Shown piece after piece: positions 16,574 to 41,265 of a stretch of 64,000 bases of DNA. This DNA is from Elainellales cyanobacterium (GTDB lineage: Bacteria > Cyanobacteriota > Cyanobacteriia > Elainellales > Elainellaceae). Each line of letters begins with the position of its first letter. The stretch's first letter is position 1. The stretch is from NCBI GenBank assembly GCA_041746655.1, contig JBGTGR010000003.1:36275-100274 (forward strand). Reading direction: 5' to 3'. The position numbers and the translations under genes were made by a program. The notes under the pieces are model-generated. The model made no database searches. It worked only from the letters and a program-made list of their open reading frames with translations, and had not been told where the DNA came from.

Positions 16574-18649
16574 CTAATCTTCTTCTTCTCCTACCTCTAA
16601 AACTCTCACTAAAAAGCCCCAGCGGTCGGCGACTTCTTCGATGACTTTGGTGGTGGGTTTGCCTGCTCCATGTCCGGCTTTAGTTTCGATGCGGATCAGA
16701 ACGGGGGGGGTTCCGGTGTGGGCGGTTTGGAGGGCGGCGGCAAATTTGAAGCTGTGGGCGGGGACGACGCGATCGTCGTGGTCGGCGGTGGTGACGAGGG
16801 TGGCGGGGTAGGTGATGTTGGGTTTGAGGTTGTGGAGGGGGGAGTAGGCGTGGAGGGCTTTGAATTCGTCAGGGTTTTCGGGGGAGCCGTAGTCTGAGCA
16901 CCAGGCCCAGCCAATGGTGAATTTGTGGAAGCGCAGCATGTCGAGGACGCCGACGGCGGGCAGGGTGGCGGCGAAGAGGTCGGGGCGTTGGGTCATGCAG
17001 GCTCCGACGAGGAGGCCACCGTTGCTGCCACCGCCGATCGCCAGCTTTTTGGGGGAGGTGTATTGATGCTCGATTAGCCATTCGGCGGCGGTGATGAAGT
17101 CGTCGAAGACGTTTTGTTTGTTGAGTTTGGTGCCTGCCTGGTGCCAGTCTTCGCCATATTCGCCGCCACCGCGCAGGTTGGGAACGGCAAAGATGCCGCC
17201 CATTTCCATCCAGACTAGGTTGCTAGGTGAGAAGAAGGGCGTGAGTGATATGTTGAAGCCGCCGTAGCCGTAGAGATAGGTGGGGTTGTTGCCGTCGAGG
17301 GTCAGCCCTTGTTTGTGGCTGATGAACATGGGGACGCGGGTGCCGTCTTTGCTGGTGTAGAAGACCTGCTGGGTTTGGTAATCTTCGGGGTTGAAGGCGA
17401 CGGTGGGCTGTCGGAAGAGAGTGCTTTCACCGCTGACCAGGTCGTAACGGTAGATGGTGTTGGGGGTGGTGAAGCTGGTAAAGCTGTAGAAGGTTTCTGT
17501 ATCTGCTTTTTTGCCGCCAAATCCACCTGCGGAGCCGAGTCCGGGTAGCTCGACCTGCCGCACAAAGTTGCCTTGCAGGTCAAAAATTTTGATTTCGGTA
17601 TGGGCATCTTTTAGGTAAGCGGCGACAAACTGCTGGTTGAGGGTGCCGACGTTTTCTAAGGTTTCTTCGGCTTGGGGAATAATTTCTTGCCAGTTTTTGC
17701 GTTCGGGTGCGGCTAGATCGATGGCAATGAGGCGACCACGCGGTGCGTCTAGGTCAGTTTGAAACCAGAAAACAGAGCCTTCGTTGTCTACGAGTTCAAA
17801 TCGAGCTTCAAATTCGCTGATCAACTCTACGATGGGCGCGTCAGGGGTGGACAGGTCTTTCCAAAAGAATAGGTTTTTGGGCTCTGAGCCGCGACTGACG
17901 TAGATGATGAGATAGCGTCCGTCTTCGGTGACGTCGGCGTTAAACATCCATTCTTTTTGGTCGGGGCGATCGTAGACCAAAACGTCTTCGGTTTGGGGCG
18001 TGCCGAGGCGGTGATAGTAGAGCTTTTGGAAATAGTTGATGTCTTCTAATTTGGTGTCTTCATTGGGCTGGTCGTAGCGCGAGTAGAAGAAGCCTTGATG
18101 GTCGTGAGTCCAGGCGGCACCAGAAAATTTTACCCACTGGAGATGATCGGGCAGGTCTTCGCCAGTTTCAATGTCGCGGACTTTCCACTCTTTCCAGTCT
18201 GAGCCGGAACTGGAAAGGCCATAAGCTAGTAGTTTGGCGTCTTCACTGACGGCCATGCCCGACAGCGCCACGGTGCCATCTTCGGAGAGGGTGTTGGGAT
18301 CGATTAGGACGCGAGGCTCTGCATCCAGGTGAGGGAGGGTGTAGAGAACGCTCTGGTTTTGCAGGCCGTCGTTTTTGAAGTAGAAGTAGCGATCGCCCTG
18401 CTTAAACGGCACTCCAAATTTTTCGTAGTTCCAAAGCTCTGTCGCCCGCTGTCGAATCGTTTCCCGCTCTGGAATATCGTTGAGATAGCCAAATGTCACC
18501 TGATTTTGCGCTTCAATCCAGGCTCGACTCTCGTCAGAGTCTGGATCTTCCAACCACCGATAAGGGTCCGCAATCTTGACGCCATGATAGTCATCGACCT
18601 GATCACCTTGATGACTGGCTGGATAGACAAGTGACTTCTCAATAGACAT
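16574..18649 (-). CDS. Prolyl oligopeptidase (S9A serine peptidase)
   Basis: N-terminus DDYHGVKIADPYRWLED, nucleophile elbow GGSNGGLL and C-terminal catalytic region AGHGAGKP. Start taken at the ATG at 18649 (MSIEKSLVYP). Confidence 0.9.
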   Translation of the reverse strand: MSIEKSLVYPASHQGDQVDDYHGVKIADPYRWLEDPDSDESRAWIEAQNQVTFGYLNDIPERETIRQRATELWNYEKFGVPFKQGDRYFYFKNDGLQNQSVLYTLPHLDAEPRVLIDPNTLSEDGTVALSGMAVSEDAKLLAYGLSSSGSDWKEWKVRDIETGEDLPDHLQWVKFSGAAWTHDHQGFFYSRYDQPNEDTKLEDINYFQKLYYHRLGTPQTEDVLVYDRPDQKEWMFNADVTEDGRYLIIYVSRGSEPKNLFFWKDLSTPDAPIVELISEFEARFELVDNEGSVFWFQTDLDAPRGRLIAIDLAAPERKNWQEIIPQAEETLENVGTLNQQFVAAYLKDAHTEIKIFDLQGNFVRQVELPGLGSAGGFGGKKADTETFYSFTSFTTPNTIYRYDLVSGESTLFRQPTVAFNPEDYQTQQVFYTSKDGTRVPMFISHKQGLTLDGNNPTYLYGYGGFNISLTPFFSPSNLVWMEMGGIFAVPNLRGGGEYGEDWHQAGTKLNKQNVFDDFITAAEWLIEHQYTSPKKLAIGGGSNGGLLVGACMTQRPDLFAATLPAVGVLDMLRFHKFTIGWAWCSDYGSPENPDEFKALHAYSPLHNLKPNITYPATLVTTADHDDRVVPAHSFKFAAALQTAHTGTPPVLIRIETKAGHGAGKPTTKVIEEVADRWGFLVRVLEVGEEED

Positions 18650-18798
18650 AGCACCGCATCTTAAACAAACACCTTCCAATGTATCTCGTTCGCTGAATGA
18701 GATGAGAATCAGGAGTCTGTTTCTTCTGATAGAGCAAAGCTCAAGCGGCTTTTCTCTATCCTTGGATTGAGCATTTCAATCAAGGCATAGAAATCATC

Positions 18799-29237: not shown

Positions 29238-29537
29238 ATGCAGGCATTGATGCGCGAGCTTTCTTTGTCAGAACATTCGGTGGTGGTGGCGGTTCAAGGA
29301 CAAGTTTCTGCTGATTTGGCTGGAGAGGCTGTAGTGCTCAATCTTCAGTCAGGCGTATATTACGGTCTCAATGAAGTTGGGGCTCGCATTTGGGAACTGA
29401 TTCAGCAGCCGACTTCTGTTGTCATGCTTTGCGAGACGTTGCTGGCTGAATATGAGGTGGAGCCAGAGCGCTGTCAACAAGATCTGTTGCAGATTTGCCA
29501 AGACCTGATTGCCTCTGGATTGGCGGAGGTCTTATGA
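29238..29537 (+). CDS. Lasso peptide biosynthesis B1 protein (PqqD-family RiPP recognition element)
   Basis: 99 aa. GEAVVLNLQSGVYYGLNEVGARIWELI is a classic PqqD/RRE signature. Its stop overlaps the next ATG (ATGA at 29534-29537). Confidence 0.85.
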   Translation: MQALMRELSLSEHSVVVAVQGQVSADLAGEAVVLNLQSGVYYGLNEVGARIWELIQQPTSVVMLCETLLAEYEVEPERCQQDLLQICQDLIASGLAEVL

Positions 29538-30001
29538 AAGATCTGATGAAAGGTCTGTATTGGGTTTGGCGTCATAGAATCTGGCACTTGTCGGCGGGCG
29601 ATCGCCTCCTATTGCTACGAGCAGTCTTACGGCTGGGCTGGGTGCGATTGGGGCTATGGCTGCTGCCGTTTTCGGTGTGGCGAAACTGGTGGTTGCGATC
29701 GCCCGCCCCCTCAACCGATCTGCGTCCGGTGGTCACGGTGGCTCAAATTGCCTGGGCTGTAGCTGCTGCTAGTCGTCTGCAACCAGGAACCGCCAAGTGT
29801 TTGGCGAGGGCCTTAACGATGCAGGCTCTGCTCAAGCAATATAGCTATGCGGCGGATCTCCATGTGGGTGTCGCGAAGGGAGACCAAGGCCAGCTAGAGG
29901 CTCATGCCTGGGTTGAGGCTGAGGGCCGAGTGGTAATAGGACAGTTAAATGATTTGACCCGCTTTGTGCCGCTGCCGTCGCTGGTTGGAGGGCGATCATG
30001 A
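29534..30001 (+). CDS. Lasso peptide biosynthesis B2 protein (transglutaminase-like cysteine protease, leader peptidase)
   Basis: Trp/Arg/Leu-rich N-terminus, then GTAKCLARAL (Cys) ... LHVGV ... EAHAWVE (His), typical of PF13471 lasso B2 proteins. ATGA overlap with the cyclase start. Confidence 0.85.
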   Translation: MKDLMKGLYWVWRHRIWHLSAGDRLLLLRAVLRLGWVRLGLWLLPFSVWRNWWLRSPAPSTDLRPVVTVAQIAWAVAAASRLQPGTAKCLARALTMQALLKQYSYAADLHVGVAKGDQGQLEAHAWVEAEGRVVIGQLNDLTRFVPLPSLVGGRS

Positions 30002-32007
30002 GCGGCATCGTTGGGATCTATGGCTGCAATAGTCAACACCTCCACCAAGCTGAGTTGCAGCGGATGGTGGAGGTGTTGGCGCATCGAGGACCCGACGGTG
30101 CAGAAATGTGGCTGGAGGGAGCAATTGGGCTGGGGCATCGCATGCTGTGGACAACGCCTGAGTCTTTGCTGGAGCGCTTGCCCTGGGTGAGTTCGGGGGG
30201 CTGTGTGATTACGGCAGATGCCCGAATTGATAACCGAGAGGAGCTGATTGCAACGCTGGCAATGGGCGATCGCCCTGCCGAAAAAATCACCGACAGTGAG
30301 CTGATTGTGGCGGCGTATGAATGTTGGGGCGATCGCTGTCTTGATCACTTGTTGGGCGATTTCGCCTTTGCAATTTGGGACCCCCACCAACAGCAGTTGT
30401 TTTGTGCAAGAGATCATTTTGGTGTCAAGCCGTTTTACTACTACGCGCAAGAGGGTCAATTTATTTTTGCCTCAGAAATGAAGGCTATCTTGGCACTGCC
30501 ACAAGTGCCTCGCCGTATCAATGAGGTGCGGATTGGCGACTACCTCAGCATGGCAATGGAAGATCAGACGATCACCACCTATCAAGACATTCTGCGGCTG
30601 CCACCTGCCCATCAGATGACGGTTAGCTCAACGGGGCTACAGCTCCAATGCTATTGGTCACTCAACCCGACACAAGAGCTTTACTTGGAGTCGGATGCAG
30701 CCTATGCAGAGGCATTTCAGCGAATCTTTACCAAAGCGGTGCGCTGTCGGTTGCGGAGTACTTTTGCAATCGGGTCTCAGCTCAGTGGTGGTCTCGATTC
30801 TTCGGCAGTGACCTGTGTGGCCCGACAGCTTCTGGTTGAAGCAGAGCAAGCGCCACTGCATACGATTTCAAATATTTTTGACACCATTACTGAGTGCGAT
30901 GAGCGTCCCTACATTCAAGCTGTCCTGGCAGAGGGAGACTTGATCCCTCACTATGTGCAAGCTGATGAAGTCGGTCCATTGACAGACGTTAAAGAGATCT
31001 GGCAGTACGAAGATGAGGCCTTTACGGGGCCAAATCATTACCTGCCCTGGGGCCTCAACCGAGCGGCACAGCAGCATGGCCTGCGCGTAGTTTTAGACGG
31101 ATTTGATGGCGACACCACCGTTTCGCACGGATTGCTCCGCCTGTTAGAACTGCTCGATCAAGGTGACTGGCAAACCTTTGTTCAAGAAGCAGAGGCGATC
31201 GCCCCCCGTTTAGATCTCTCCGCTCAAGCGGTGATTCAAAGCTATAGCGAGCTGCATCTACAGCAATTGGCCAAGCAAGGACGATGGCGAGCCTGGATAT
31301 GGGCTGCTCGTCAGCTCAACAAATATTGTCGTGGGTTGCCCCAGCACCTCCTACTCAGAACCGGGCTCAAGCCGCTGATTCCCCACCGCCTCAAGCAGCT
31401 CTGGCAACGACTTCGTTCTGGCTCTTCCAGTGCCAGATCCATGCCCTGGATCAATCCCAGCTTTGCCCGTCAGATTGGCCTAGAGCAGCGAATCCAGGCT
31501 CAAGGGCAATCTTCCGACCCGCCATTGACGGTGAGAGAAGAACAATGGCGATCGCTCACCTCTGGCGTCCGCACCTACGTGCTAGAGCAAATGGATCGCT
31601 ATGCGGCTGCCTGTGGCCTGGAGATGCGCCATCCCTTTATGGACAAACGATTGATTGAGTTTTGTCTGGCACTGCCTGCCCAGCAAAAGCTAGACCAGGG
31701 CTGGAATCGTATCGTCATGCGTCGAGCCCTGACTGGAATTTTGCCGGAGGTCATCCAGTGGCGCAGCAGTAAAACAGACATGACGCCCAATTTTGTTCAT
31801 GGCTTGCTCGACCTCGATCGTCAATCTCTGGAGGCTGCAATTCTCAACCGCTCTAGCCTCCTAGAGAAGTATATGGATGCTGACTTTTTACAAACTGTTT
31901 ATCACCAGATTTCAACAGAAGGAAAAGTCGGAAACGGCGACCTGATGATGATTTGGCGAACTGCCATCTTGGCGCTGTGGCTTCACCAAGGTCAAGCGGT
32001 ACCATGA
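29998..32007 (+). CDS. Lasso peptide cyclase (asparagine-synthetase-like C protein)
   Basis: 669 aa. The N-terminus is MSGIVGIYG, with Ser where true AsnB has the Cys2 nucleophile. PP-loop SGGLDSS is present. The context is B1/B2/precursor. Confidence 0.9.
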   Translation: MSGIVGIYGCNSQHLHQAELQRMVEVLAHRGPDGAEMWLEGAIGLGHRMLWTTPESLLERLPWVSSGGCVITADARIDNREELIATLAMGDRPAEKITDSELIVAAYECWGDRCLDHLLGDFAFAIWDPHQQQLFCARDHFGVKPFYYYAQEGQFIFASEMKAILALPQVPRRINEVRIGDYLSMAMEDQTITTYQDILRLPPAHQMTVSSTGLQLQCYWSLNPTQELYLESDAAYAEAFQRIFTKAVRCRLRSTFAIGSQLSGGLDSSAVTCVARQLLVEAEQAPLHTISNIFDTITECDERPYIQAVLAEGDLIPHYVQADEVGPLTDVKEIWQYEDEAFTGPNHYLPWGLNRAAQQHGLRVVLDGFDGDTTVSHGLLRLLELLDQGDWQTFVQEAEAIAPRLDLSAQAVIQSYSELHLQQLAKQGRWRAWIWAARQLNKYCRGLPQHLLLRTGLKPLIPHRLKQLWQRLRSGSSSARSMPWINPSFARQIGLEQRIQAQGQSSDPPLTVREEQWRSLTSGVRTYVLEQMDRYAAACGLEMRHPFMDKRLIEFCLALPAQQKLDQGWNRIVMRRALTGILPEVIQWRSSKTDMTPNFVHGLLDLDRQSLEAAILNRSSLLEKYMDADFLQTVYHQISTEGKVGNGDLMMIWRTAILALWLHQGQAVP

Positions 32008-32074
32008 CCAAAAATTAGGGCTGCAATACCAACTTCAAGACCTCACTAGAAGATTAAGAACAGGAGACTCCAGA

Positions 32075-32260
32075 ATGAAAAAGAGTTACACCCCCCCCAA
32101 AATCACAGTTCACGGCACTATTGAAGAACTCACCCAGTTCTTTGATGCCGTGTCGGCTAGAGACACACTATTTACTTCCGGAAACCCAGCAGGGATTGCT
32201 GGCGAAGGCTCGGCTGACTTCAGATGTCGAGCGGGTGGCGTCTGCGAGATTGAGCCTTAA
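32075..32260 (+). CDS. Lasso peptide precursor (A), 61 aa
   Basis: AGGAG RBS 8 nt upstream. MKKSYTPPKITVHGTIEELTQ fits the lasso leader motif YxxPx(L/I)x3Gx5Tx. Downstream sequence: FFDAVSARDTLFTSGNPAGIAGEGSADFRCRAGGVCEIEP. Confidence 0.8.
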   Translation: MKKSYTPPKITVHGTIEELTQFFDAVSARDTLFTSGNPAGIAGEGSADFRCRAGGVCEIEP

Positions 32261-32455
32261 TAACTAAGTCACACAGCTCAGACTGAGCCAACCCATTCTT
32301 TAGGCAGTGCATCTTGGGAACGTTGCTCCATCAGGCTAGCCCAGCTTTGTTCTCAACCTTTGTTCTGTTGGGAGAATTTTGCCCCACACGCAGCTCAAAG
32401 ACTTCTACCAAGCTGGGCCTACCTTTCCTCCAAATTCTTGCTTCGGCTATTGGTG

Positions 32456-33358
32456 ATGTACATCTACACGGCTTATCACCTTTGTATTCATTCCGAGTTC
32501 CCGCTCCAGGAACTGACGATTGCTGATGGGGCACCAGATGTAACGGTGCGGTTGGGCCAGATTAAAGCGTTGGCAGATGGACCGCTTAATGGTAAAAACA
32601 ATGATAAAAATCGAGTATTGGGAGAATTGTCCGGCATTGGGTGGTTCTTGATTGAGCAAGGACACACTATCACCATCGAACCTGAGCCGGGTGTTGATGA
32701 TTTAGCTTTGAGCCCTAACGTGTTGGGGCCTGCCATGTCGGTCCTCTTGCGACAAAGAGGATTATTGGTCTTACATGCCAGCAGTGTCGTGGTTGGAGGA
32801 GAGGCGATCGCCTTCCTGGGTGCCTCCGGTTGGGGTAAATCGACTCTAGCCAAAGCTTTTCACAATCAGGGCTATAGCGTTCTCACCGATGATGTGCTGG
32901 CCATTGATACCCACCCTGCTACACCTGTGGTGCTGCCAGGATTTCCTCAGCTCAAGCTCTGGCCCGATGCCGCTCTCTCATTAGGTTCCAACAATCTGCC
33001 ACCGCTCTTTCCCAATGCCTCTAAGCTTGCGTTTCGGTTTGACCAGGGCTTTCAACTGACGCCAATCCCTCTCCGGCGCATCTATGTACTGGCACGAGGA
33101 ATTGATCACAAAATTTCTCCCCTGGAGCCTCAAACAGCGCTAATCGAGCTGGTCCGCCATACTCGCATGGTCAATGTTTTAAAGGCACCCGAATTAGTGC
33201 GGGCGCACTTGCAGCAATGTGCGGATCTGGTGCAGCAGACATCAATCCGCCAGTTTACGCGGCAATTGTCACTGGCAGCCATGCCTGAATTGATTCAGCT
33301 GATCGAAGCCGATTTGGGCATCGGTAATGCGATCGCCTGCGAATCCTCACCCGGATAA
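32456..33358 (+). CDS. HPr-kinase-like (HprK C-terminal domain) protein, putative lasso peptide kinase
   Basis: LVLHASSVVVGGEAIAFLGASGWGKSTLAKAF carries the P-loop. Start taken at the ATG at 32456; the track ORF begins at a TTG at 32360. Confidence 0.7.
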   Translation: MYIYTAYHLCIHSEFPLQELTIADGAPDVTVRLGQIKALADGPLNGKNNDKNRVLGELSGIGWFLIEQGHTITIEPEPGVDDLALSPNVLGPAMSVLLRQRGLLVLHASSVVVGGEAIAFLGASGWGKSTLAKAFHNQGYSVLTDDVLAIDTHPATPVVLPGFPQLKLWPDAALSLGSNNLPPLFPNASKLAFRFDQGFQLTPIPLRRIYVLARGIDHKISPLEPQTALIELVRHTRMVNVLKAPELVRAHLQQCADLVQQTSIRQFTRQLSLAAMPELIQLIEADLGIGNAIACESSPG

Positions 33359-34508
33359 AGTCCCAACCGTAGTATTCATTTTCATCGCTGACCCGCCTCT
33401 TATGAATTTTTCGTTGGCCATTGCTCCAGAAAAAGAGCATCCAGAGGCAAGGCTGGTGCGCTGCTGCGCTCGAATGCAAATGAGTGCAGAGTGGGAAAAA
33501 GCCCTCCGCCAGACCCTCTTGCTGCCGATCGATTGGCCCCTGTTGACTCAAATTGCGCTCTGTCAGGGTATGATGCCCTTGCTCTATCGGAACTTGAAGG
33601 CCACTTGCCCTGAAGCCGTGCCCCCGGCTTGCTTGCGATCGCTCCAGCAACACTTTCAAGCCAATGCCCTGCACAGCTTGCCTTATGCACAGGAGCTATT
33701 GCACCTCTTGCGCCAGCTAGATGCCTCTCAAGTTCGCGCCATTCCTTACAAAGGCCCCATGCTAGCGGCGAAGGTTTATCACAATCTTTCACTGCGAGAG
33801 TTTTGTGATTTGGATATTTTGGTGCATGAGCAAGATGCAGCAAAGGCGATCGCCCTCCTCCAAAACGAAGGCTACGATTGCACAACTGCATCAGCCTGGG
33901 AACAAAACTTTTGCCACTATACCCGCAAAGTCAATGTTGACTTGCACTGGGGCATTACCCAGCCCTATCTCGCTTTTCCGATCGAGTTTGATCACCTATG
34001 GCAGCGACGGGAAACTGTTTTGATGTCGGGGGCCGAGGTGCCTAGCCTGTCGGCAGAAGATTTGCTAATAGTGTTGGTGGTGCAAGTTGCCAAAGATGGC
34101 TGGTGCAGACAGTCTCAGCTGATTAAAGTCTGCGATGTGGCTGAGCTGATCCATTCGCGGCCCGAGCTCAACTGGGATTGGGTAATGGCAGAGGCTCGCC
34201 GCAAGGGAAGCTTACGCATACTATTTTTGGGATTGTTAATTGCGACTGAGGTGTTGGGCGCACCCCTACCGCCAGAAATTGCTATGCAAGTCCGGGCTGA
34301 TGCCACGATTCGAGGGTTGGCCGCCAGAATCCAACAGCAACTCTTTGAGGCTCGATGGCTGACCTCAATGGCCTCTAAAGGCATCTTGCAAGTCTTGAAA
34401 GATCGGGCTGATACGGCTGTGTTCCCGCTCCAGATGAGAGAACGCTGGCAGGATCAAGTCCCTTACTTACTGCACGGCTTGAAGACTTTAGTTGCTCAGC
34501 GAGATTGA
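33327..34508 (+). CDS. Uncharacterised nucleotidyltransferase family protein (PF14907/NTP_transf_5-like), lasso-cluster-associated
   Basis: FCDLDILVHEQDAAKAIALLQNEGY is typical of this family. The start is either the ATG at 33327 (32-nt overlap with the kinase) or the ATG at 33402. Confidence 0.6.
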   Translation: MRSPANPHPDKVPTVVFIFIADPPLMNFSLAIAPEKEHPEARLVRCCARMQMSAEWEKALRQTLLLPIDWPLLTQIALCQGMMPLLYRNLKATCPEAVPPACLRSLQQHFQANALHSLPYAQELLHLLRQLDASQVRAIPYKGPMLAAKVYHNLSLREFCDLDILVHEQDAAKAIALLQNEGYDCTTASAWEQNFCHYTRKVNVDLHWGITQPYLAFPIEFDHLWQRRETVLMSGAEVPSLSAEDLLIVLVVQVAKDGWCRQSQLIKVCDVAELIHSRPELNWDWVMAEARRKGSLRILFLGLLIATEVLGAPLPPEIAMQVRADATIRGLAARIQQQLFEARWLTSMASKGILQVLKDRADTAVFPLQMRERWQDQVPYLLHGLKTLVAQRD

Positions 34509-35749
34509 GGTTGCAAGAATCCGGCTAGATTTTTGCGAAAACTTTCCCTACCGTAGGTTTCAATCACACTGGCTCGGAGCTGTTGTGGCTGGTAGAGCAA
34601 TGGGTTGGAATAGGTTTTTTGCAAGATTCCAATCAGCGCTTGAGCAATTTCGTCTACGCTGTCGGGGTCAATGAGCGCGCCAAATTTGCCCTGACAGAGC
34701 GCATCAATCGCCCCGTCCTGGTTCCCTCCCAAGGCAGGCTTACCACAGGCCAAAGCCTCTAAGTAGACAATGCCAAAGCCTTCCAGCTTGCTAGGCATGG
34801 CGAAGACATCGCAGAGGTTGTAGTAGTTGCAGAGTTCTTCGTCGGGGACAAATCCCGCCAGGGTGACGCAGTCTTGGAGGTTGTGTTGGGCGATAAACTG
34901 CTCTAGCCGGGGACGATCGTCGCCTTTTCCAGCAATGATGTAATGCACATCGGGCAAGACCTGACGGATTTGGGGCAGCGCTTCCAAAACCTTGTCATAG
35001 CCTCGGTAAGGCTCATTTGCCACCAAGCGATTGACGGTTAAGATAATGGGCTGATTGGGCTGGAGATTGTAGCGCTCCAATAGATAGGCTGGCTTGGGTG
35101 CAACCTGAAAGCGATCGCCATCCACCGTATTCGGCAAAACCACCACCTGGTCGGGCCGCAGGTTTTGTTCTTTGAGTAGGCGATCGCGCGTGTAAGAACT
35201 CACCGCCAGAATCAGATCCGCATGGTGCAATGCCTTTCGCAGAGAGGGCTTTTGGATGTCCCAGGCTTCGATACCGTGGGCGATCGCCCAAAAAGGAACA
35301 TGGGTTAATCTTTTTAGCAACGCGGCAACAGGCGTGTAGTTGAGGTGGGTGGAGATCACGAGGTTGGGACGCTGCTGCACCCCCTGACTCAAAAGCTGAG
35401 CGGCAAAGGCAGGCGTTCGCAGCCGAGCCGGAACATTGCCCGCACAGTGAAAGCGAGTCGGAGCCGCACTCTGCCAATCGATAGACGCAGGACGATCCTG
35501 TTTGAGAAACACATCGTAGCGGCTCTGGGGATAGAGACTTTGCAGCGTTTCTAGAAAAACGGCTGAAAACACCTGAATGCCACCCTTAAACTCAAAGATG
35601 TTGGGAAACCACAGGTGAAACGCTGGAGAAGGGTCAGATTTTGGCATGGCGTCCATAGGCAAATGATCTCGAACAGAGAATCCATGAGATGAATCCGTGG
35701 CAGTCCTGTCTATGCTCTCACACCGCTGTCTAGGCCTGTCTGCGGACAT
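34496..35749 (-). CDS. Glycosyltransferase family 4 (GT-B)
   Basis: C-terminal EGFGIVYLEALACGKPALGG motif. The start is uncertain (ATG at 35749, 35656 or 35647). Its 3' end overlaps the convergent nucleotidyltransferase gene by 13 nt. Confidence 0.8.
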   Translation of the reverse strand: MSADRPRQRCESIDRTATDSSHGFSVRDHLPMDAMPKSDPSPAFHLWFPNIFEFKGGIQVFSAVFLETLQSLYPQSRYDVFLKQDRPASIDWQSAAPTRFHCAGNVPARLRTPAFAAQLLSQGVQQRPNLVISTHLNYTPVAALLKRLTHVPFWAIAHGIEAWDIQKPSLRKALHHADLILAVSSYTRDRLLKEQNLRPDQVVVLPNTVDGDRFQVAPKPAYLLERYNLQPNQPIILTVNRLVANEPYRGYDKVLEALPQIRQVLPDVHYIIAGKGDDRPRLEQFIAQHNLQDCVTLAGFVPDEELCNYYNLCDVFAMPSKLEGFGIVYLEALACGKPALGGNQDGAIDALCQGKFGALIDPDSVDEIAQALIGILQKTYSNPLLYQPQQLRASVIETYGRESFRKNLAGFLQPQSR

Positions 35750-39864: not shown

Positions 39865-41265
39865 TCAGGGATTCTCCTGTTCTAGGGAGTAGGGGTTGCT
39901 GGAATAAACAGAGTTAACCTGTTGTAGCTTCTTTTGCTCCATCCATTCCAAGAAGCGCACTAATGTATAGCCAAAAATCATTGGCCAGAGTACTAGCAAC
40001 GTAATATCTCGCCCTAAGTTAGGTGTGATACCAAGACCCACCAGAAAAAGACAAAGTCTCAGTACGGAATAGCTTTGACTCCAAAGTCTGGCTAAAAAGG
40101 CCGCCCATAGACCCAGTAAAAATGCTGGCGCGATGGGACCAAGCCAAGGCCCAAAGTTGAGCACACCCCGACCCAGAAAACCCGCCGCGATTGTGGCGAA
40201 GACACCAATTTCGCTGCTTGCGCTGCCAAATCCCCTTAAGACGTTATATTCATAGCCAAGAATTGGTTTGCTAGGCCAAATGACGCGTGGAATGAAGTTA
40301 AGAAAGTCTGCTAAGTAGTCAAAACCATATTTAAGGGTGACAGCTCCTTGGGTGTAGAAAGTATTGACATAAAATAGCTCCTCCGCCATGTTTAGACCTA
40401 GATGCTTTGTTTCTGTTCGGGTACTTCCACCCTGATCTAGATCTAAGAGAAAGTCATCGAATCCAATATTTCGGTAGGCAATAACAATGGTGAAAATATA
40501 GTTTAGGGCGATAAGTAACAAGAAAGAAACGCCAATTTTTATCCACCATTTTTGTTTGGAAATTAAAACATAGGTGAAGAAGGCTGGCATGGCGACTGCT
40601 AAGAACTGGTTGCGAGTTCCCAGCAGAATGAAATATGGCCAAGAGATCAGAATAATAGCAAGGTTCATCACTCTGGCTTGAAATCGAGTCTGGAGGAGAA
40701 GCATTACTCCAAAAAATGCACAGAGGAGACTATAGGTATAGCCTGCCGAGGAGATAATGAATCCCATCGCACCTGCAGATGCACCACCACCCCGTCCCCA
40801 CATTTGTCTTCCGGCTCTTGCTGCTAGAGGGAAAAGTGCTTGAAAGAAATCCCAATTTAATCGGCTTGCTCCATACAAGAGCAGTAGAAACCAAAGAATT
40901 GAGATATAGGCAAGCAGTCGCGCTGGATTTAACGAAAGTCGGCTGACTATTTTGTATAGTTCAGATGGCTTTGCGATTAGTTTTTTGGTGAAAAATGGAG
41001 TGAAGATGCGGAAGAAAGTTAGGAAAATAATTACTTGAAAGTAACTCATTTCCACGACAGAGGATGAGAAGCTAAGATAGTTTTCAGGGGTATAAATAAT
41101 TTCAACAAAGTACCAAAGAGCAGTTGTGGCGTAGACAACAAGAGCCGGAATCCTCCAAACTTGCCTTCTTCTGATAAACGCTTCTAGACTAAGAAGCGCT
41201 AGCAAGATGCCAGCTAGAATATAAAGTAATGGTAGTTCTGGGCTAAATGCAGCTTCGGGACTCAT
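39865..41265 (-). CDS. Polytopic membrane protein, O-antigen polymerase/ligase-like (Wzy-like)
   Basis: 466 aa with at least 10 hydrophobic segments and one larger loop, inside a glycan cluster. There is no diagnostic motif, so the call rests on topology and context. Confidence 0.45.
   Translation of the reverse strand: MSPEAAFSPELPLLYILAGILLALLSLEAFIRRRQVWRIPALVVYATTALWYFVEIIYTPENYLSFSSSVVEMSYFQVIIFLTFFRIFTPFFTKKLIAKPSELYKIVSRLSLNPARLLAYISILWFLLLLYGASRLNWDFFQALFPLAARAGRQMWGRGGGASAGAMGFIISSAGYTYSLLCAFFGVMLLLQTRFQARVMNLAIILISWPYFILLGTRNQFLAVAMPAFFTYVLISKQKWWIKIGVSFLLLIALNYIFTIVIAYRNIGFDDFLLDLDQGGSTRTETKHLGLNMAEELFYVNTFYTQGAVTLKYGFDYLADFLNFIPRVIWPSKPILGYEYNVLRGFGSASSEIGVFATIAAGFLGRGVLNFGPWLGPIAPAFLLGLWAAFLARLWSQSYSVLRLCLFLVGLGITPNLGRDITLLVLWPMIFGYTLVRFLEWMEQKKLQQVNSVYSSNPYSLEQENP

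What the first reader, a model, noticed from the sequence alone, without database searches (positions are those of the whole stretch)
32075..32260. Lasso precursor with two competing leader/core registers, an exceptionally long core and a Cys pair
Seen in sequence: MKKSYTPPKITVHGTIEELTQ matches the lasso leader motif YxxPx(L/I)x3Gx5Tx exactly (Y5, P8, I10, G14, T20, then Q21). This register predicts cleavage after Q21. The resulting 40-aa core, FFDAVSARDTLFTSGNPAGIAGEGSADFRCRAGGVCEIEP, would start with Phe and close a 9-residue ring F1-D9. A second canonical site lies 14 residues downstream: ...LFTS|GNPAGIAGE... This has Thr at -2, Gly at +1 and Glu at +9. It would give a 26-aa core, GNPAGIAGEGSADFRCRAGGVCEIEP, with a G1-E9 ring. 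Both registers keep two Cys six residues apart (possible disulfide) and end in Pro. Established knowledge: cores are usually 13-26 aa and mostly start with Gly (also Ala/Ser/Cys, rarely Leu/Trp). The Thr at -2 is the key B2 determinant. The longest tail I know of is pandonodin, with a 33-aa core. Inference: either this is a record-length, Phe1 lasso peptide, or the conserved leader motif is followed by a 14-aa spacer before the true core. Either architecture would be atypical. Two products from one precursor cannot be excluded.
Basis: partly seen in the sequence, partly recalled or inferred. Interest (0 to 1): 0.85.

Follow-up and report, generated by a model that had tools for sequence, protein, structure and literature searches.

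The report
Cyanobacterial long-core lasso peptide precursor
This small gene encodes the precursor of a lasso peptide from a large, catalogued but untested cyanobacterial family; comparing about 200 relatives shows that the first cut site (after Thr20-Gln21, ring Phe1-Asp9, 40-residue core) is the real one and the second "site" is a coincidence of this one sequence.

Summary
The 61-aa ORF at 32075-32260 (+) is real. It sits in an intact cluster: B1 (PqqD), B2, C (cyclase), A, an HprK-like kinase and an NTP_transf_5 nucleotidyltransferase. It passes NCBIfam NF033528 "lasso_cyano", and the cyclase passes NF033535.

I collected 199 homologous precursors.
- Register 1: Thr-2 is kept in 198/199. The acceptor Asp is at core position 9 in 188 and at position 10 in 11.
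- Register 2: Gly36 is kept in only 157/199. An acceptor at 7-9 occurs in 94 of those, and Thr-2 in just 2 (one is the window).
- A pseudo-site like register 2 arises in about 10% of shuffles of the window tail.
- Short-core relatives (16-20 aa) fit register 1 only.

So the predicted product has a 40-aa core with a Phe1-Asp9 ring. This is typical for the family, not exceptional: median core 40 aa, 162/199 longer than 33 aa, Phe1 in 14/199.

Family features not in the finding:
- A conserved tail motif G-S-x-D (window Ser46). I infer it is the kinase target, because the C-terminal Ser used in paeninodin-type peptides is absent.
- A Cys pair after that motif in 91/199.

Verdict: a new, divergent member of a known kind. 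I found no report of a characterised member. Interest is moderate.

The parts
29238..29537 (+). B1: PqqD-like RiPP recognition element (leader-binding chaperone), 99 aa
   Evidence: Pfam PqqD, 72.7 bits. NCBIfam lasso_PqqD_Bac, 79.4 bits against a cut-off of 80. Homologues sit upstream of B2 and C in L002-L015.
29534..30001 (+). B2: transglutaminase-like leader peptidase, 155 aa from the ATG (an alternative TTG start lies at 29495)
   Evidence: Pfam Transglut_core3, 83.4 bits. NCBIfam lasso_biosyn_B2, 103 bits against a cut-off of 33. Cys89 and His124 are invariant across 12 homologues.
29998..32007 (+). C: ATP-dependent lasso cyclase (asparagine-synthetase-like lactam synthetase), 669 aa
   Evidence: NCBIfam NF033535 lass_lactam_cya, 985 bits against a cut-off of 525. 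Pfam Asn_synthase plus GATase_7. 46-57% identical to cyanobacterial homologues.
32062..32066 (+). Shine-Dalgarno AGGAG, 8 nt upstream of the precursor ATG
   Evidence: Read directly from the sequence.
32075..32260 (+). A: lasso precursor gene, 61 aa plus stop
   Evidence: NF033528 lasso_cyano, 38.2 bits against a cut-off of 33. The family profile scores 68-70 bits.
32075..32137 (+). Leader, residues 1-21 (MKKSYTPPKITVHGTIEELTQ), with Y5, P8, G14 and T20
   Evidence: M1, Y5, P8, G14 and T20 are invariant in 58/58 close homologues. Thr-2 is kept in 198/199. The generic leader model NF033521 aligns to residues 5-21.
32138..32257 (+). Predicted core, residues 22-61 (40 aa): FFDAVSARDTLFTSGNPAGIAGEGSADFRCRAGGVCEIEP
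   Evidence: Register 1 is supported by family conservation and by short-core homologues.
32162..32164 (+). Asp30 codon (core Asp9): predicted isopeptide acceptor for the Phe22 alpha-amine
   Evidence: Invariant in 58/58. Asp is at core position 9 or 10 in 199/199. It aligns with the ring Asp of the short-core Desulfobulbaceae precursors.
32210..32212 (+). Ser46 codon (core Ser25) in the conserved tail motif G-S-x-D (GEGSADF): inferred phosphorylation site
   Evidence: Ser in 54/58 aligned sequences. S-x-[DN] occurs in 181/199 tails against 79 +/- 6 in shuffles. GS-x-[DN] occurs in 143/199 against 11 +/- 3. Members without the motif are enriched for a C-terminal Ser. The assignment as kinase target is inference.
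32225..32245 (+). Cys51 ... Cys57 (core Cys30 and Cys36): possible tail-tail disulfide
   Evidence: Read directly from the sequence. Exactly two Cys occur in 91/199 family members. In 79 of those 91, both lie after the S-x-D motif.
32456..33358 (+). K: HprK-like Ser kinase (Pfam ScmC family), 300 aa (an alternative TTG start lies at 32360)
   Evidence: Weak Hpr_kinase_C and HprK_rel_A hits. Precomputed Pfam family PF27840; homologues are annotated 'serine kinase'. The AlphaFold model has pLDDT 90.4. It matches the PEPCK and HprK/P folds at E of 1e-7 to 1e-5. H107, K128, D145 and D146 are present.
33402..34508 (+). N: NTP_transf_5 nucleotidyltransferase (same annotation as PsmN of the pseudomycoidin cluster), 368 aa (an alternative ATG lies at 33327)
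   Evidence: Pfam PF14907, 209 bits. Homologues lie downstream of K in L002, L003, L005, L008, L011 and L015.

Best explanation
The ORF is the precursor (A) of a lasso peptide of the cyanobacterial 'lasso_cyano' family. It is made by a split-B cluster: B1-B2-C-A-K-N.

Proposed steps (all inferred from homology; nothing was tested experimentally here):
1. B1 binds the leader through the YxxP region.
2. B2 cuts after Thr20-Gln21.
3. C adenylates the Asp30 side chain and joins it to the new Phe22 alpha-amine. This gives a 9-residue macrolactam (Phe1-Asp9) around a 31-residue loop and tail, so the core is 40 aa.

The downstream 'TS|G...E' site is not used. Gly36 more likely marks a turn in the loop; this is speculation, based on the fact that most relatives have Asn-Gly there.

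Tailoring (inference):
- The HprK-like kinase phosphorylates the conserved tail Ser46 (core Ser25, motif G-S-x-D). It would do so on the linear precursor, as shown for paeninodin-type systems.
- The NTP_transf_5 enzyme further decorates the phosphate, as PsmN does in pseudomycoidin.
- Cys51 and Cys57 may form a tail-tail (class IV-like) disulfide just after that motif.
For: Cluster identity:
- B1, B2 and C match Pfam and NCBIfam models.
- The cyclase scores 985 bits against NF033535.
- The precursor passes NF033528.

Register 1:
- In 58 close homologues, M1, Y5, P8, G14, T20 and D30 are invariant.
- In 199 homologues, Thr-2 is kept in 198. Asp is at core position 9 in 188 and at position 10 in 11.
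- The generic lasso leader model aligns to residues 5-21.
- Desulfobulbaceae homologues lie next to C genes that are 37% identical. Their cores are 16-20 aa (for example AAALEFRVDGTFSMGS) and allow only register 1. The family profile aligns through their ring Asp.
- 72/199 cores begin with Ala and have Asp9, the same ring residues as in characterised paeninodin and pseudomycoidin (PMC6993621).

Against register 2.

Tailoring:
- K has the kinase fold and the His-Lys-Asp-Asp residues. The motif is described in PMC9266682.
- The S-x-[DN] tail motif is strongly over-represented. It is anti-correlated with a C-terminal Ser (Fisher p = 2e-5).
- Phosphorylation of a non-C-terminal Ser by a lasso-cluster kinase has a precedent: BsfK acts on Ser3 (PMC10368454).
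- Aromatic first residues are known: Trp1 in fusilassin and Tyr1 in halolassin (10.1101/2020.11.25.399105).
Against: - I found no report of an isolated or reconstituted member of this family. Cleavage site, ring and topology therefore rest on sequence comparison only.
- To my knowledge, Phe, Val or Ile at position 1 has not been shown for a natural lasso peptide.
- 11/199 homologues place the Asp at position 10. Under register 1 that requires a 10-residue ring, which to my knowledge is not known in nature, although fusilassin enzymes tolerate ring sizes of +/-1.
- Gly36 is invariant among the 58 closest relatives, and 46 of them have an acidic residue 7-9 positions after it. Register 2 is therefore formally possible in that subclade.
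- One genome paper drew a homologue as a 36-residue peptide starting with Gly, in silico only (PMC9332814).
- The window's core is atypical for the family: Asp3 where 180/199 have Gly3.
- The cluster lacks the ABC exporter that its relatives carry.
- The family sequences are phylogenetically related, so the counts are not independent events.
Confidence: 0.8

Rival explanations
1. Register 2. The true leader is 35 aa: the conserved motif plus a 14-aa spacer. B2 cuts after Thr34-Ser35, and C closes a Gly36-Glu44 ring. This gives a conventional 26-aa Gly1 core.
For: - The site is present in the window.
- Gly36 is invariant in the 58 closest homologues. 46 of the 58 have Asp or Glu 7-9 residues after it, mostly at position 9 in the Nostocales clade.
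- The NCBIfam lasso_cyano profile spans 35 positions and so ends at this Gly.
- A published in-silico drawing of a homologue starts with Gly (PMC9332814).
- Gly is by far the commonest first residue of known lasso peptides (general knowledge).
Against: - Thr at -2 of this site occurs in only 2 of the 157 homologues that keep the Gly. The usual residues there are Phe, Leu, Ile or Val.
- The Gly itself is missing in 42/199.
- 63 of the 157 have no acidic residue at positions 7-9. Some have no acidic residue anywhere downstream, for example P0048, P0051 and P0053.
- It would leave the invariant Thr20 and Asp30 unexplained.
- It would need a leader-motif-to-cleavage spacing that, to my knowledge, no characterised B1/B2 system has.
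- The pattern arises by chance in 10-23% of shuffles of the window tail.
Confidence: 0.06
2. The cluster does not make a threaded lasso from this precursor in this strain. One possibility is a decaying or cryptic cluster. Another is a branched-cyclic or linear phosphorylated and glycosylated peptide rather than a [1]rotaxane.
For: - The window precursor is the most divergent member found. It hits only itself in a single-sequence search of 5.8 billion proteins.
- It has Asp3 where 180/199 have Gly3.
- The ABC exporter present between K and N in six relatives is missing.
- K, N and RRE modules also act on non-lasso precursors in Bacillota (PMC13381572).
- Topology cannot be read from sequence.
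Against: - All six genes are full-length open reading frames.
- The catalytic residues checked are intact: B2 Cys89 and His124; K His107, Lys128, Asp145 and Asp146. The cyclase scores 985 bits.
- The precursor keeps all the invariant leader and ring residues.
- The precursor has a good Shine-Dalgarno sequence.
- Asp3 also occurs in another family member, P0187.
Confidence: 0.1
3. Both sites are used, so one precursor gives two lasso products.
For: Only that both patterns exist in this one sequence.
Against: - The second site is not conserved.
- After cleavage at Gln21 and cyclisation, residues 22-35 would be part of the ring and loop, not a leader.
- A second cleavage would have to happen without a leader motif at the canonical distance.
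Confidence: 0.02

Closest known systems
NCBIfam NF033528 'lasso_cyano' precursors with NF033535 'lass_lactam_cya' cyclases (catalogued cyanobacterial lasso clusters; I found no report of a characterised member)
   Same: - The precursor and the cyclase both score above the curated cut-offs.
- Same gene order: B1-B2-C-A-K-...-N.
- Same invariant residues: Y5, P8, G14, T20, D30.
- Same tail S-x-D motif, and the same frequent Cys pair.
   Different: - The window precursor is a divergent member, 27-48% identical to the others.
- It has Phe1 (14/199), Asp3 instead of Gly3, and Thr-Ser-Gly instead of Leu/Phe-Asn-Gly.
- Its cluster lacks the ABC exporter gene.
Paeninodin and pseudomycoidin (Bacillota): phosphorylated, or phosphorylated and glycosylated, lasso peptides with PadeK/PsmK kinases and the PsmN nucleotidyltransferase
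   Same: - Split B1/B2, a C cyclase, an HprK-like kinase with the His-Lys-Asp-Asp residues, and an NTP_transf_5-type enzyme.
- Thr at -2.
- A 9-residue ring closed on Asp9.
   Different: - Those cores are far shorter than this 40-aa core (about 20-25 aa, from memory).
- They start with Ala and end in the Ser that is phosphorylated.
- This core starts with Phe and ends in Pro, so the kinase target must be internal (inferred to be Ser46).
- This core also has a Cys pair.
Pandonodin (class IV, Pseudomonadota): the characterised lasso peptide with the longest tail, 33 aa in total
   Same: A long C-terminal tail with a tail-tail Cys pair (PMC13352647).
   Different: - Pandonodin starts with Gly (from memory).
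- I am not aware of kinase or nucleotidyltransferase tailoring for it.
- This predicted core is 40 aa, and the family reaches 77 aa.
BsfA/BsfK of Bradymonas sediminis: a lasso precursor phosphorylated on core Ser3
   Same: It is a precedent for a lasso-cluster HprK-like kinase acting on a Ser that is not C-terminal, assisted by B1 (PMC10368454).
   Different: - The site there is Ser3 in the ring, and the leader has Ile at -2.
- Here position 3 is Asp, and the conserved Ser is in the tail.
Fusilassin, cellulassin and halolassin (Actinomycetota)
   Same: Aromatic first residues (Trp1 or Tyr1) form the macrolactam. The enzymes tolerate changes at position 1 and ring sizes of +/-1.
   Different: - Those are short cores of about 18 aa, with no kinase or nucleotidyltransferase.
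- Phe1, Val1 or Ile1 has not been shown as a natural first residue, to my knowledge.

Membership tests
Lasso peptide (RiPP class) | Precursor leader with a YxxPxL/I...G...T-x motif and Thr at -2 | tested here: met
   Y5, P8, I10, G14 and T20 are present and conserved in 58/58 close homologues. Thr-2 is kept in 198/199. The leader model NF033521 aligns to residues 5-21 at 18.6 bits, against a cut-off of 19.
Lasso peptide (RiPP class) | Adjacent B1 (PqqD-like RRE), B2 (Cys protease) and C (Asn-synthetase-like cyclase) | tested here: met
   Pfam and NCBIfam hits. B2 Cys89 and His124 are invariant. C scores 985 bits against a cut-off of 525.
Lasso peptide (RiPP class) | Asp or Glu acceptor at core position 7-9 | tested here: met
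   Asp9 of the register-1 core (Asp30). It is invariant in 58/58 and lies at position 9 in 188/199.
Lasso peptide (RiPP class) | Isopeptide ring with the tail threaded through it ([1]rotaxane) | not testable with these tools
   This needs MS/MS, carboxypeptidase or heat resistance tests, NMR or ion-mobility MS.
NCBIfam NF033528 lasso_cyano / NF033535 lass_lactam_cya | HMM score above the curated cut-off | tested here: met
   Precursor 38.2 bits against 33. Cyclase 985.2 bits against 525.
Paeninodin-like phosphorylated lasso peptides | HprK-like kinase with the conserved His-Lys-Asp-Asp residues in the cluster | tested here: met
   H107, K128, D145 and D146 are present, and invariant or nearly invariant in 36 homologues. 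The model matches the PEPCK and HprK/P fold. The motif is described in PMC9266682.
Paeninodin-like phosphorylated lasso peptides | C-terminal Ser of the precursor as phospho-acceptor | tested here: not met
   The precursor ends in Pro61. Only 18/199 family members end in Ser.
Paeninodin-like phosphorylated lasso peptides | PsmN-type nucleotidyltransferase in the cluster | tested here: met
   PF14907 NTP_transf_5, 209 bits. I did not compare it directly with the PsmN sequence, which was not available.
Class IV lasso peptides (tail-tail disulfide) | Exactly two Cys, both in the tail, joined by a disulfide | tested here: inconclusive
   Two Cys lie at core positions 30 and 36. The pattern recurs in 91/199 members. 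Disulfide formation cannot be tested here.
Second cleavage register (Thr34-Ser35|Gly36...Glu44) | Conservation of Thr-2, Gly+1 and an acceptor at 7-9 among homologues | tested here: not met
   Gly in 157/199. Acceptor in 94/157. Thr-2 in 2/157. Chance expectation for the pattern is 10-23%.

The most novel reading that the evidence does not exclude
The whole cyanobacterial family, including this peptide, could be a distinct and uncharacterised subclass of lasso peptides. Its features would be:
- cores well beyond the 33-aa record (median 40 aa, up to 77 aa)
- macrolactams closed on hydrophobic or aromatic first residues (Val, Ile, Phe, Ala)
- phosphorylation, and possibly glycosylation, on an internal conserved G-S-x-D serine rather than the C-terminal Ser
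- a disulfide loop just after that serine, so that a modification or disulfide-based plug locks a very long tail
- about 5% of members with a 10-residue ring
Probability: 0.35. Interest if true: 0.65.

Novelty: new member of a known kind. Interest (0 to 1): 0.45.

Why it matters
I found no report of a characterised cyanobacterial lasso peptide. Solved lasso structures come from three other phyla only and span 14-33 residues (PMC12214591).

This locus is a compact six-gene cluster, so it is a practical candidate for heterologous expression. Expression would test several points at once:
- whether cores of 40 aa or more are threaded
- whether Phe, Val or Ile can be the ring-forming N-terminus in nature
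- where the HprK-like kinase acts when there is no C-terminal Ser

The comparison also fixes the leader/core boundary for several hundred database entries (552 profile hits in the representative library). At least one published genome paper appears to have drawn that boundary differently.

Tried and rejected
- A single-sequence search with the precursor found only itself. A profile was needed.
- I looked for a stabilising hairpin or terminator after the precursor gene. The consensus scan was at background level. The RNA fold of 32255-32460 had a z-score of -0.2. No inverted repeats were found.
- A sequence search of K against the PDB gave only P-loop noise, with E above 0.1. Fold comparison was needed.
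- I tested whether the membrane protein at 39865-41265 (-) is homologous to the one next to the lasso cluster in L015. It is not. A conserved link to the neighbouring polysaccharide genes is therefore unproven.
- I looked in the window for a dedicated ABC exporter and found none. The only ABC genes belong to an ABC-2 (Wzm/Wzt-like) pair about 21 kb away.
- The RODEO paper (PMC5391289) is not held in the library.
- Literature searches for a characterised cyanobacterial lasso peptide, and for natural Phe1, Val1 or Ile1 lassos, found none.
- No precursor was detected in loci L007, L013 and L014 within the DNA available.
- I considered and rejected two other readings: a SynChlorMet-type cassette, because there is no radical-SAM gene, and dual processing at both sites.

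Full report
**Observation.** An AGGAG ribosome-binding site lies at 32062-32066, 8 nt before the ATG.
- Y5, P8, I10, G14, T20, Q21
- F22...D30
- T34-S35-G36...E44
- C51 and C57
- Pro61 at the C-terminus

**Context.** The ORF is the fourth gene of a co-directional cluster:

| Gene | Coordinates | Evidence |
|---|---|---|
| B1 | 29238-29537 | PqqD, 72.7 bits |
| B2 | 29534-30001 | NF033537, 103 bits |
| C | 29998-32007 | NF033535 "lasso peptide isopeptide bond-forming cyclase", 985 bits vs cut-off 525 |
| A | 32075-32260 | see below |
| K | 32456-33358 | HprK-like |
| N | 33402-34508 | PF14907 NTP_transf_5, 209 bits |

- The precursor passes NCBIfam NF033528 "lasso_cyano" (38.2 bits, cut-off 33; residues 1-34 on profile positions 1-34 of 35).
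- Its residues 5-21 align to the generic lasso leader model NF033521.
- The genome is cyanobacterial. The HIP1 octamer GCGATCGC occurs 112 times in 64 kb, against about 1 expected. The closest cyclase homologues are from Brasilonema, Scytonema, Rhizonema, Vacuolonema and Leptolyngbyaceae, at 54-57% identity.

**Homologues.**
- A single-sequence search found only the window's own peptide, so this is a divergent member.
- The cyclase retrieved 13 loci. Small ORFs with the same leader lie directly after the cyclase gene in most of them. The gene order in the cyanobacterial loci that extend far enough is B1-B2-C-A-K-(ABC exporter)-N.
- A profile of eight precursors found 61 proteins, many annotated "lasso peptide" by NCBI.
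- A profile of 47 precursors, searched exhaustively against 1.84 billion representatives, found 552 proteins at E <= 1e-3.
- I analysed 199 non-redundant precursors.

**Which register?**

| Feature | Register 1 (cut after T20-Q21) | Register 2 (cut before G36) |
|---|---|---|
| Thr at -2 | 198/199 | 2/157 (the window and P0067); usually Phe, Leu, Ile or Val |
| First residue | A72, V53, I33, F14, M7, L6, others | Gly present in 157/199 |
| Acidic acceptor | core position 9 in 188, position 10 in 11 | at 7-9 in only 94 of the 157 |

- In the 58 closest relatives, M1, Y5, P8, G14, T20, D30 and G36 are invariant.
- Several sequences have no acidic residue at all after the Gly, for example P0048, P0051 and P0053.
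- A T-x-G-x5-7-[DE] pattern arises in 10% of shuffles of the window's own tail.
- Distant homologues lie next to cyclases that are 37% identical, in Desulfobulbaceae. Their cores are only 16-20 aa: AAALEFRVDGTFSMGS, AARNQGVKDNGSGLYHAS and ATEEGAKCDGVLFGDQPCVS. These can only be read in register 1. The family profile aligns them through the ring Asp.
- The commonest ring type in the family, Ala1...Asp9, matches the rings of characterised paeninodin and pseudomycoidin (PMC6993621).

I conclude that register 1 is the biosynthetic register. Register 2 is a coincidence in this sequence. What made it look plausible is that Gly36 is conserved in the nearer relatives. Gly36 usually follows Asn, so an Asn-Gly turn in the loop is a plausible reason for that conservation; this is speculation.

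**Consequences.**
- The predicted core is 40 aa, with a Phe1-Asp9 ring.
- This exceeds the characterised record. A June 2026 review gives pandonodin (33 aa) the longest tail and achromonodin-1 (30 aa) the largest loop (PMC13352647). Solved structures span 14-33 aa and come from only three phyla, none cyanobacterial (PMC12214591).
- It is ordinary for this family, though. Cores run 23-77 aa with a median of 40, and 162/199 exceed 33 aa.
- Phe1 occurs in 14/199. Aromatic Trp1 and Tyr1 rings are experimentally known (10.1101/2020.11.25.399105).

**Tailoring.**
- K is widely conserved in cyanobacteria. It belongs to Pfam PF27840 (ScmC) and is often annotated "serine kinase".
- A confident model (pLDDT 90.4) matches the PEPCK and HprK/P kinase fold.
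- It has the His-Lys-Asp-Asp residues reported as essential in lasso kinases: H107, K128, D145, D146 (PMC9266682).
- Characterised kinases of this type phosphorylate the C-terminal Ser of the linear precursor (paeninodin, ThcoA, SyanA, pseudomycoidin) or Ser3 (BsfA, PMC10368454; LppA, PMC13381572).
- Here the C-terminus is Pro and position 3 is Asp.
- The family instead has a conserved tail motif, G-S-x-[D/N]-hydrophobic. In the window this is GEGS46ADF.
  - Ser46 is kept in 54/58 close relatives.
  - S-x-[DN] occurs in 181/199 tails, against 79 +/- 6 in shuffles.
  - GS-x-[DN] occurs in 143/199, against 11 +/- 3.
  - The 18 members without the motif end in Ser far more often: 8/18 against 10/181, Fisher p = 2e-5. 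These sequences are related, so the p-value overstates independence.
- I therefore infer that Ser46 is the kinase target, and that N then decorates the phosphate as PsmN does. This is inference only.
- Two Cys occur in 91/199 members. In 79 of those 91, both lie after the motif. This suggests a class IV-like tail loop. In the window it would be Cys51-Cys57.

**Caveats.**
- Nothing has been tested experimentally. I found no report of a characterised family member.
- One genome paper depicts a homologue as a 36-residue, Gly-first peptide without experimental support (PMC9332814). This looks like the register-2 reading, but I could not see the figure.
- Eleven homologues carry the Asp at position 10, for example P0013, which sits in an intact cluster (L015). 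Under register 1 that implies a 10-residue ring, or a cleavage site shifted by one residue. Fusilassin enzymes tolerate ring sizes of +/-1 in vitro.
- The window's precursor has Asp3 where 180/199 have Gly3.
- Its cluster lacks the ABC exporter found in relatives.

**Verdict.**
The reading "long-core Phe1 lasso" holds. The readings "two competing registers", "14-aa spacer" and "atypical" do not hold once the family is considered.
- This is a new, divergent member of a catalogued but uncharacterised kind.
- Interest is moderate. It lies in the family-level predictions (very long cores, hydrophobic first residues, an internal phospho-site, possible 10-residue rings) rather than in a register conflict.

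Noticed in passing
Family-wide (P0013, P0019, P0023, P0033, P0076, P0094, P0106, P0107, P0123, P0187, P0193); locus L015 6001-6198: 11 of 199 homologous precursors carry the otherwise invariant ring Asp at core position 10 instead of 9. The extra residue lies between Gly3 and the Asp. P0013 sits in an intact B1-B2-C-A-K-ABC-N cluster. This predicts a 10-residue macrolactam, or a cleavage site shifted by one residue. At least five of these sequences cannot use register 2 either.
   Followed up: partly
window 32198-32221 (GEGSADF; Ser46 codon at 32210-32212), and the tails of the family: A conserved tail motif, G-S-x-[D/N]-hydrophobic, lies at a variable distance from the ring. S-x-[DN] occurs in 181/199 tails against about 79 in shuffles. 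Members without it tend to end in Ser. It is a candidate internal phosphorylation site for the HprK-like kinase.
   Followed up: partly
window 33358-33402 (K/N junction), compared with L002 9893-11731 and L015 7490-9352: Related cyanobacterial clusters carry an ABC exporter of about 612-620 aa between K and N. The window has none there, and no dedicated exporter elsewhere in the 64 kb.
   Followed up: yes
window 34496-35749 (-) and onward to about 57565 (-): A GT4 glycosyltransferase converges on N and overlaps its 3' end. It is followed on the minus strand by GT2, an FkbM methyltransferase, two more GT4 genes, a multi-pass membrane protein and, further on, an ABC-2 transporter pair, together resembling a polysaccharide cluster. 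GT4-like genes also follow N in L002, L003 and L015. The membrane proteins of the window and L015 are not homologous. Whether a glycosyltransferase belongs to the lasso pathway is open.
   Followed up: partly
L008 8144-8340 and 8477-8710: Two precursor genes with the same leader type lie behind one cyclase. One has a canonical Gly1 core (GFDHHNDKE...) and the other an Ala1...Asp9 long core. It looks as if the same B2 handles both Gly and Ala after the Thr-Gln site.
   Followed up: no
whole window: The HIP1 palindrome GCGATCGC occurs 112 times in 64 kb, against about 1 expected. This is a cyanobacterial genome signature.
   Followed up: yes
L004 12503-13579; L009 4740-6617 and 7804-8787: A second cyclase homologue lies a few kb from the first in Rhizonema (59% identical to the window's C). 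In a Desulfobulbaceae MAG there are two cyclase homologues, plus two B1 genes and two precursors. These look like tandem or duplicated lasso clusters.
   Followed up: no
window 16574-18679 (-): A prolyl oligopeptidase (S9 family, 701 aa) lies about 13 kb upstream of the cluster. It is probably unrelated, but I note it because the precursor ends in Pro and many family tails are Pro-rich.
   Followed up: no
L007, L013, L014: No precursor ORF was detected by motif or profile near the B1-B2-C genes of two Thermosynechococcaceae loci and one Longimicrobiales locus, within the DNA available.
   Followed up: partly
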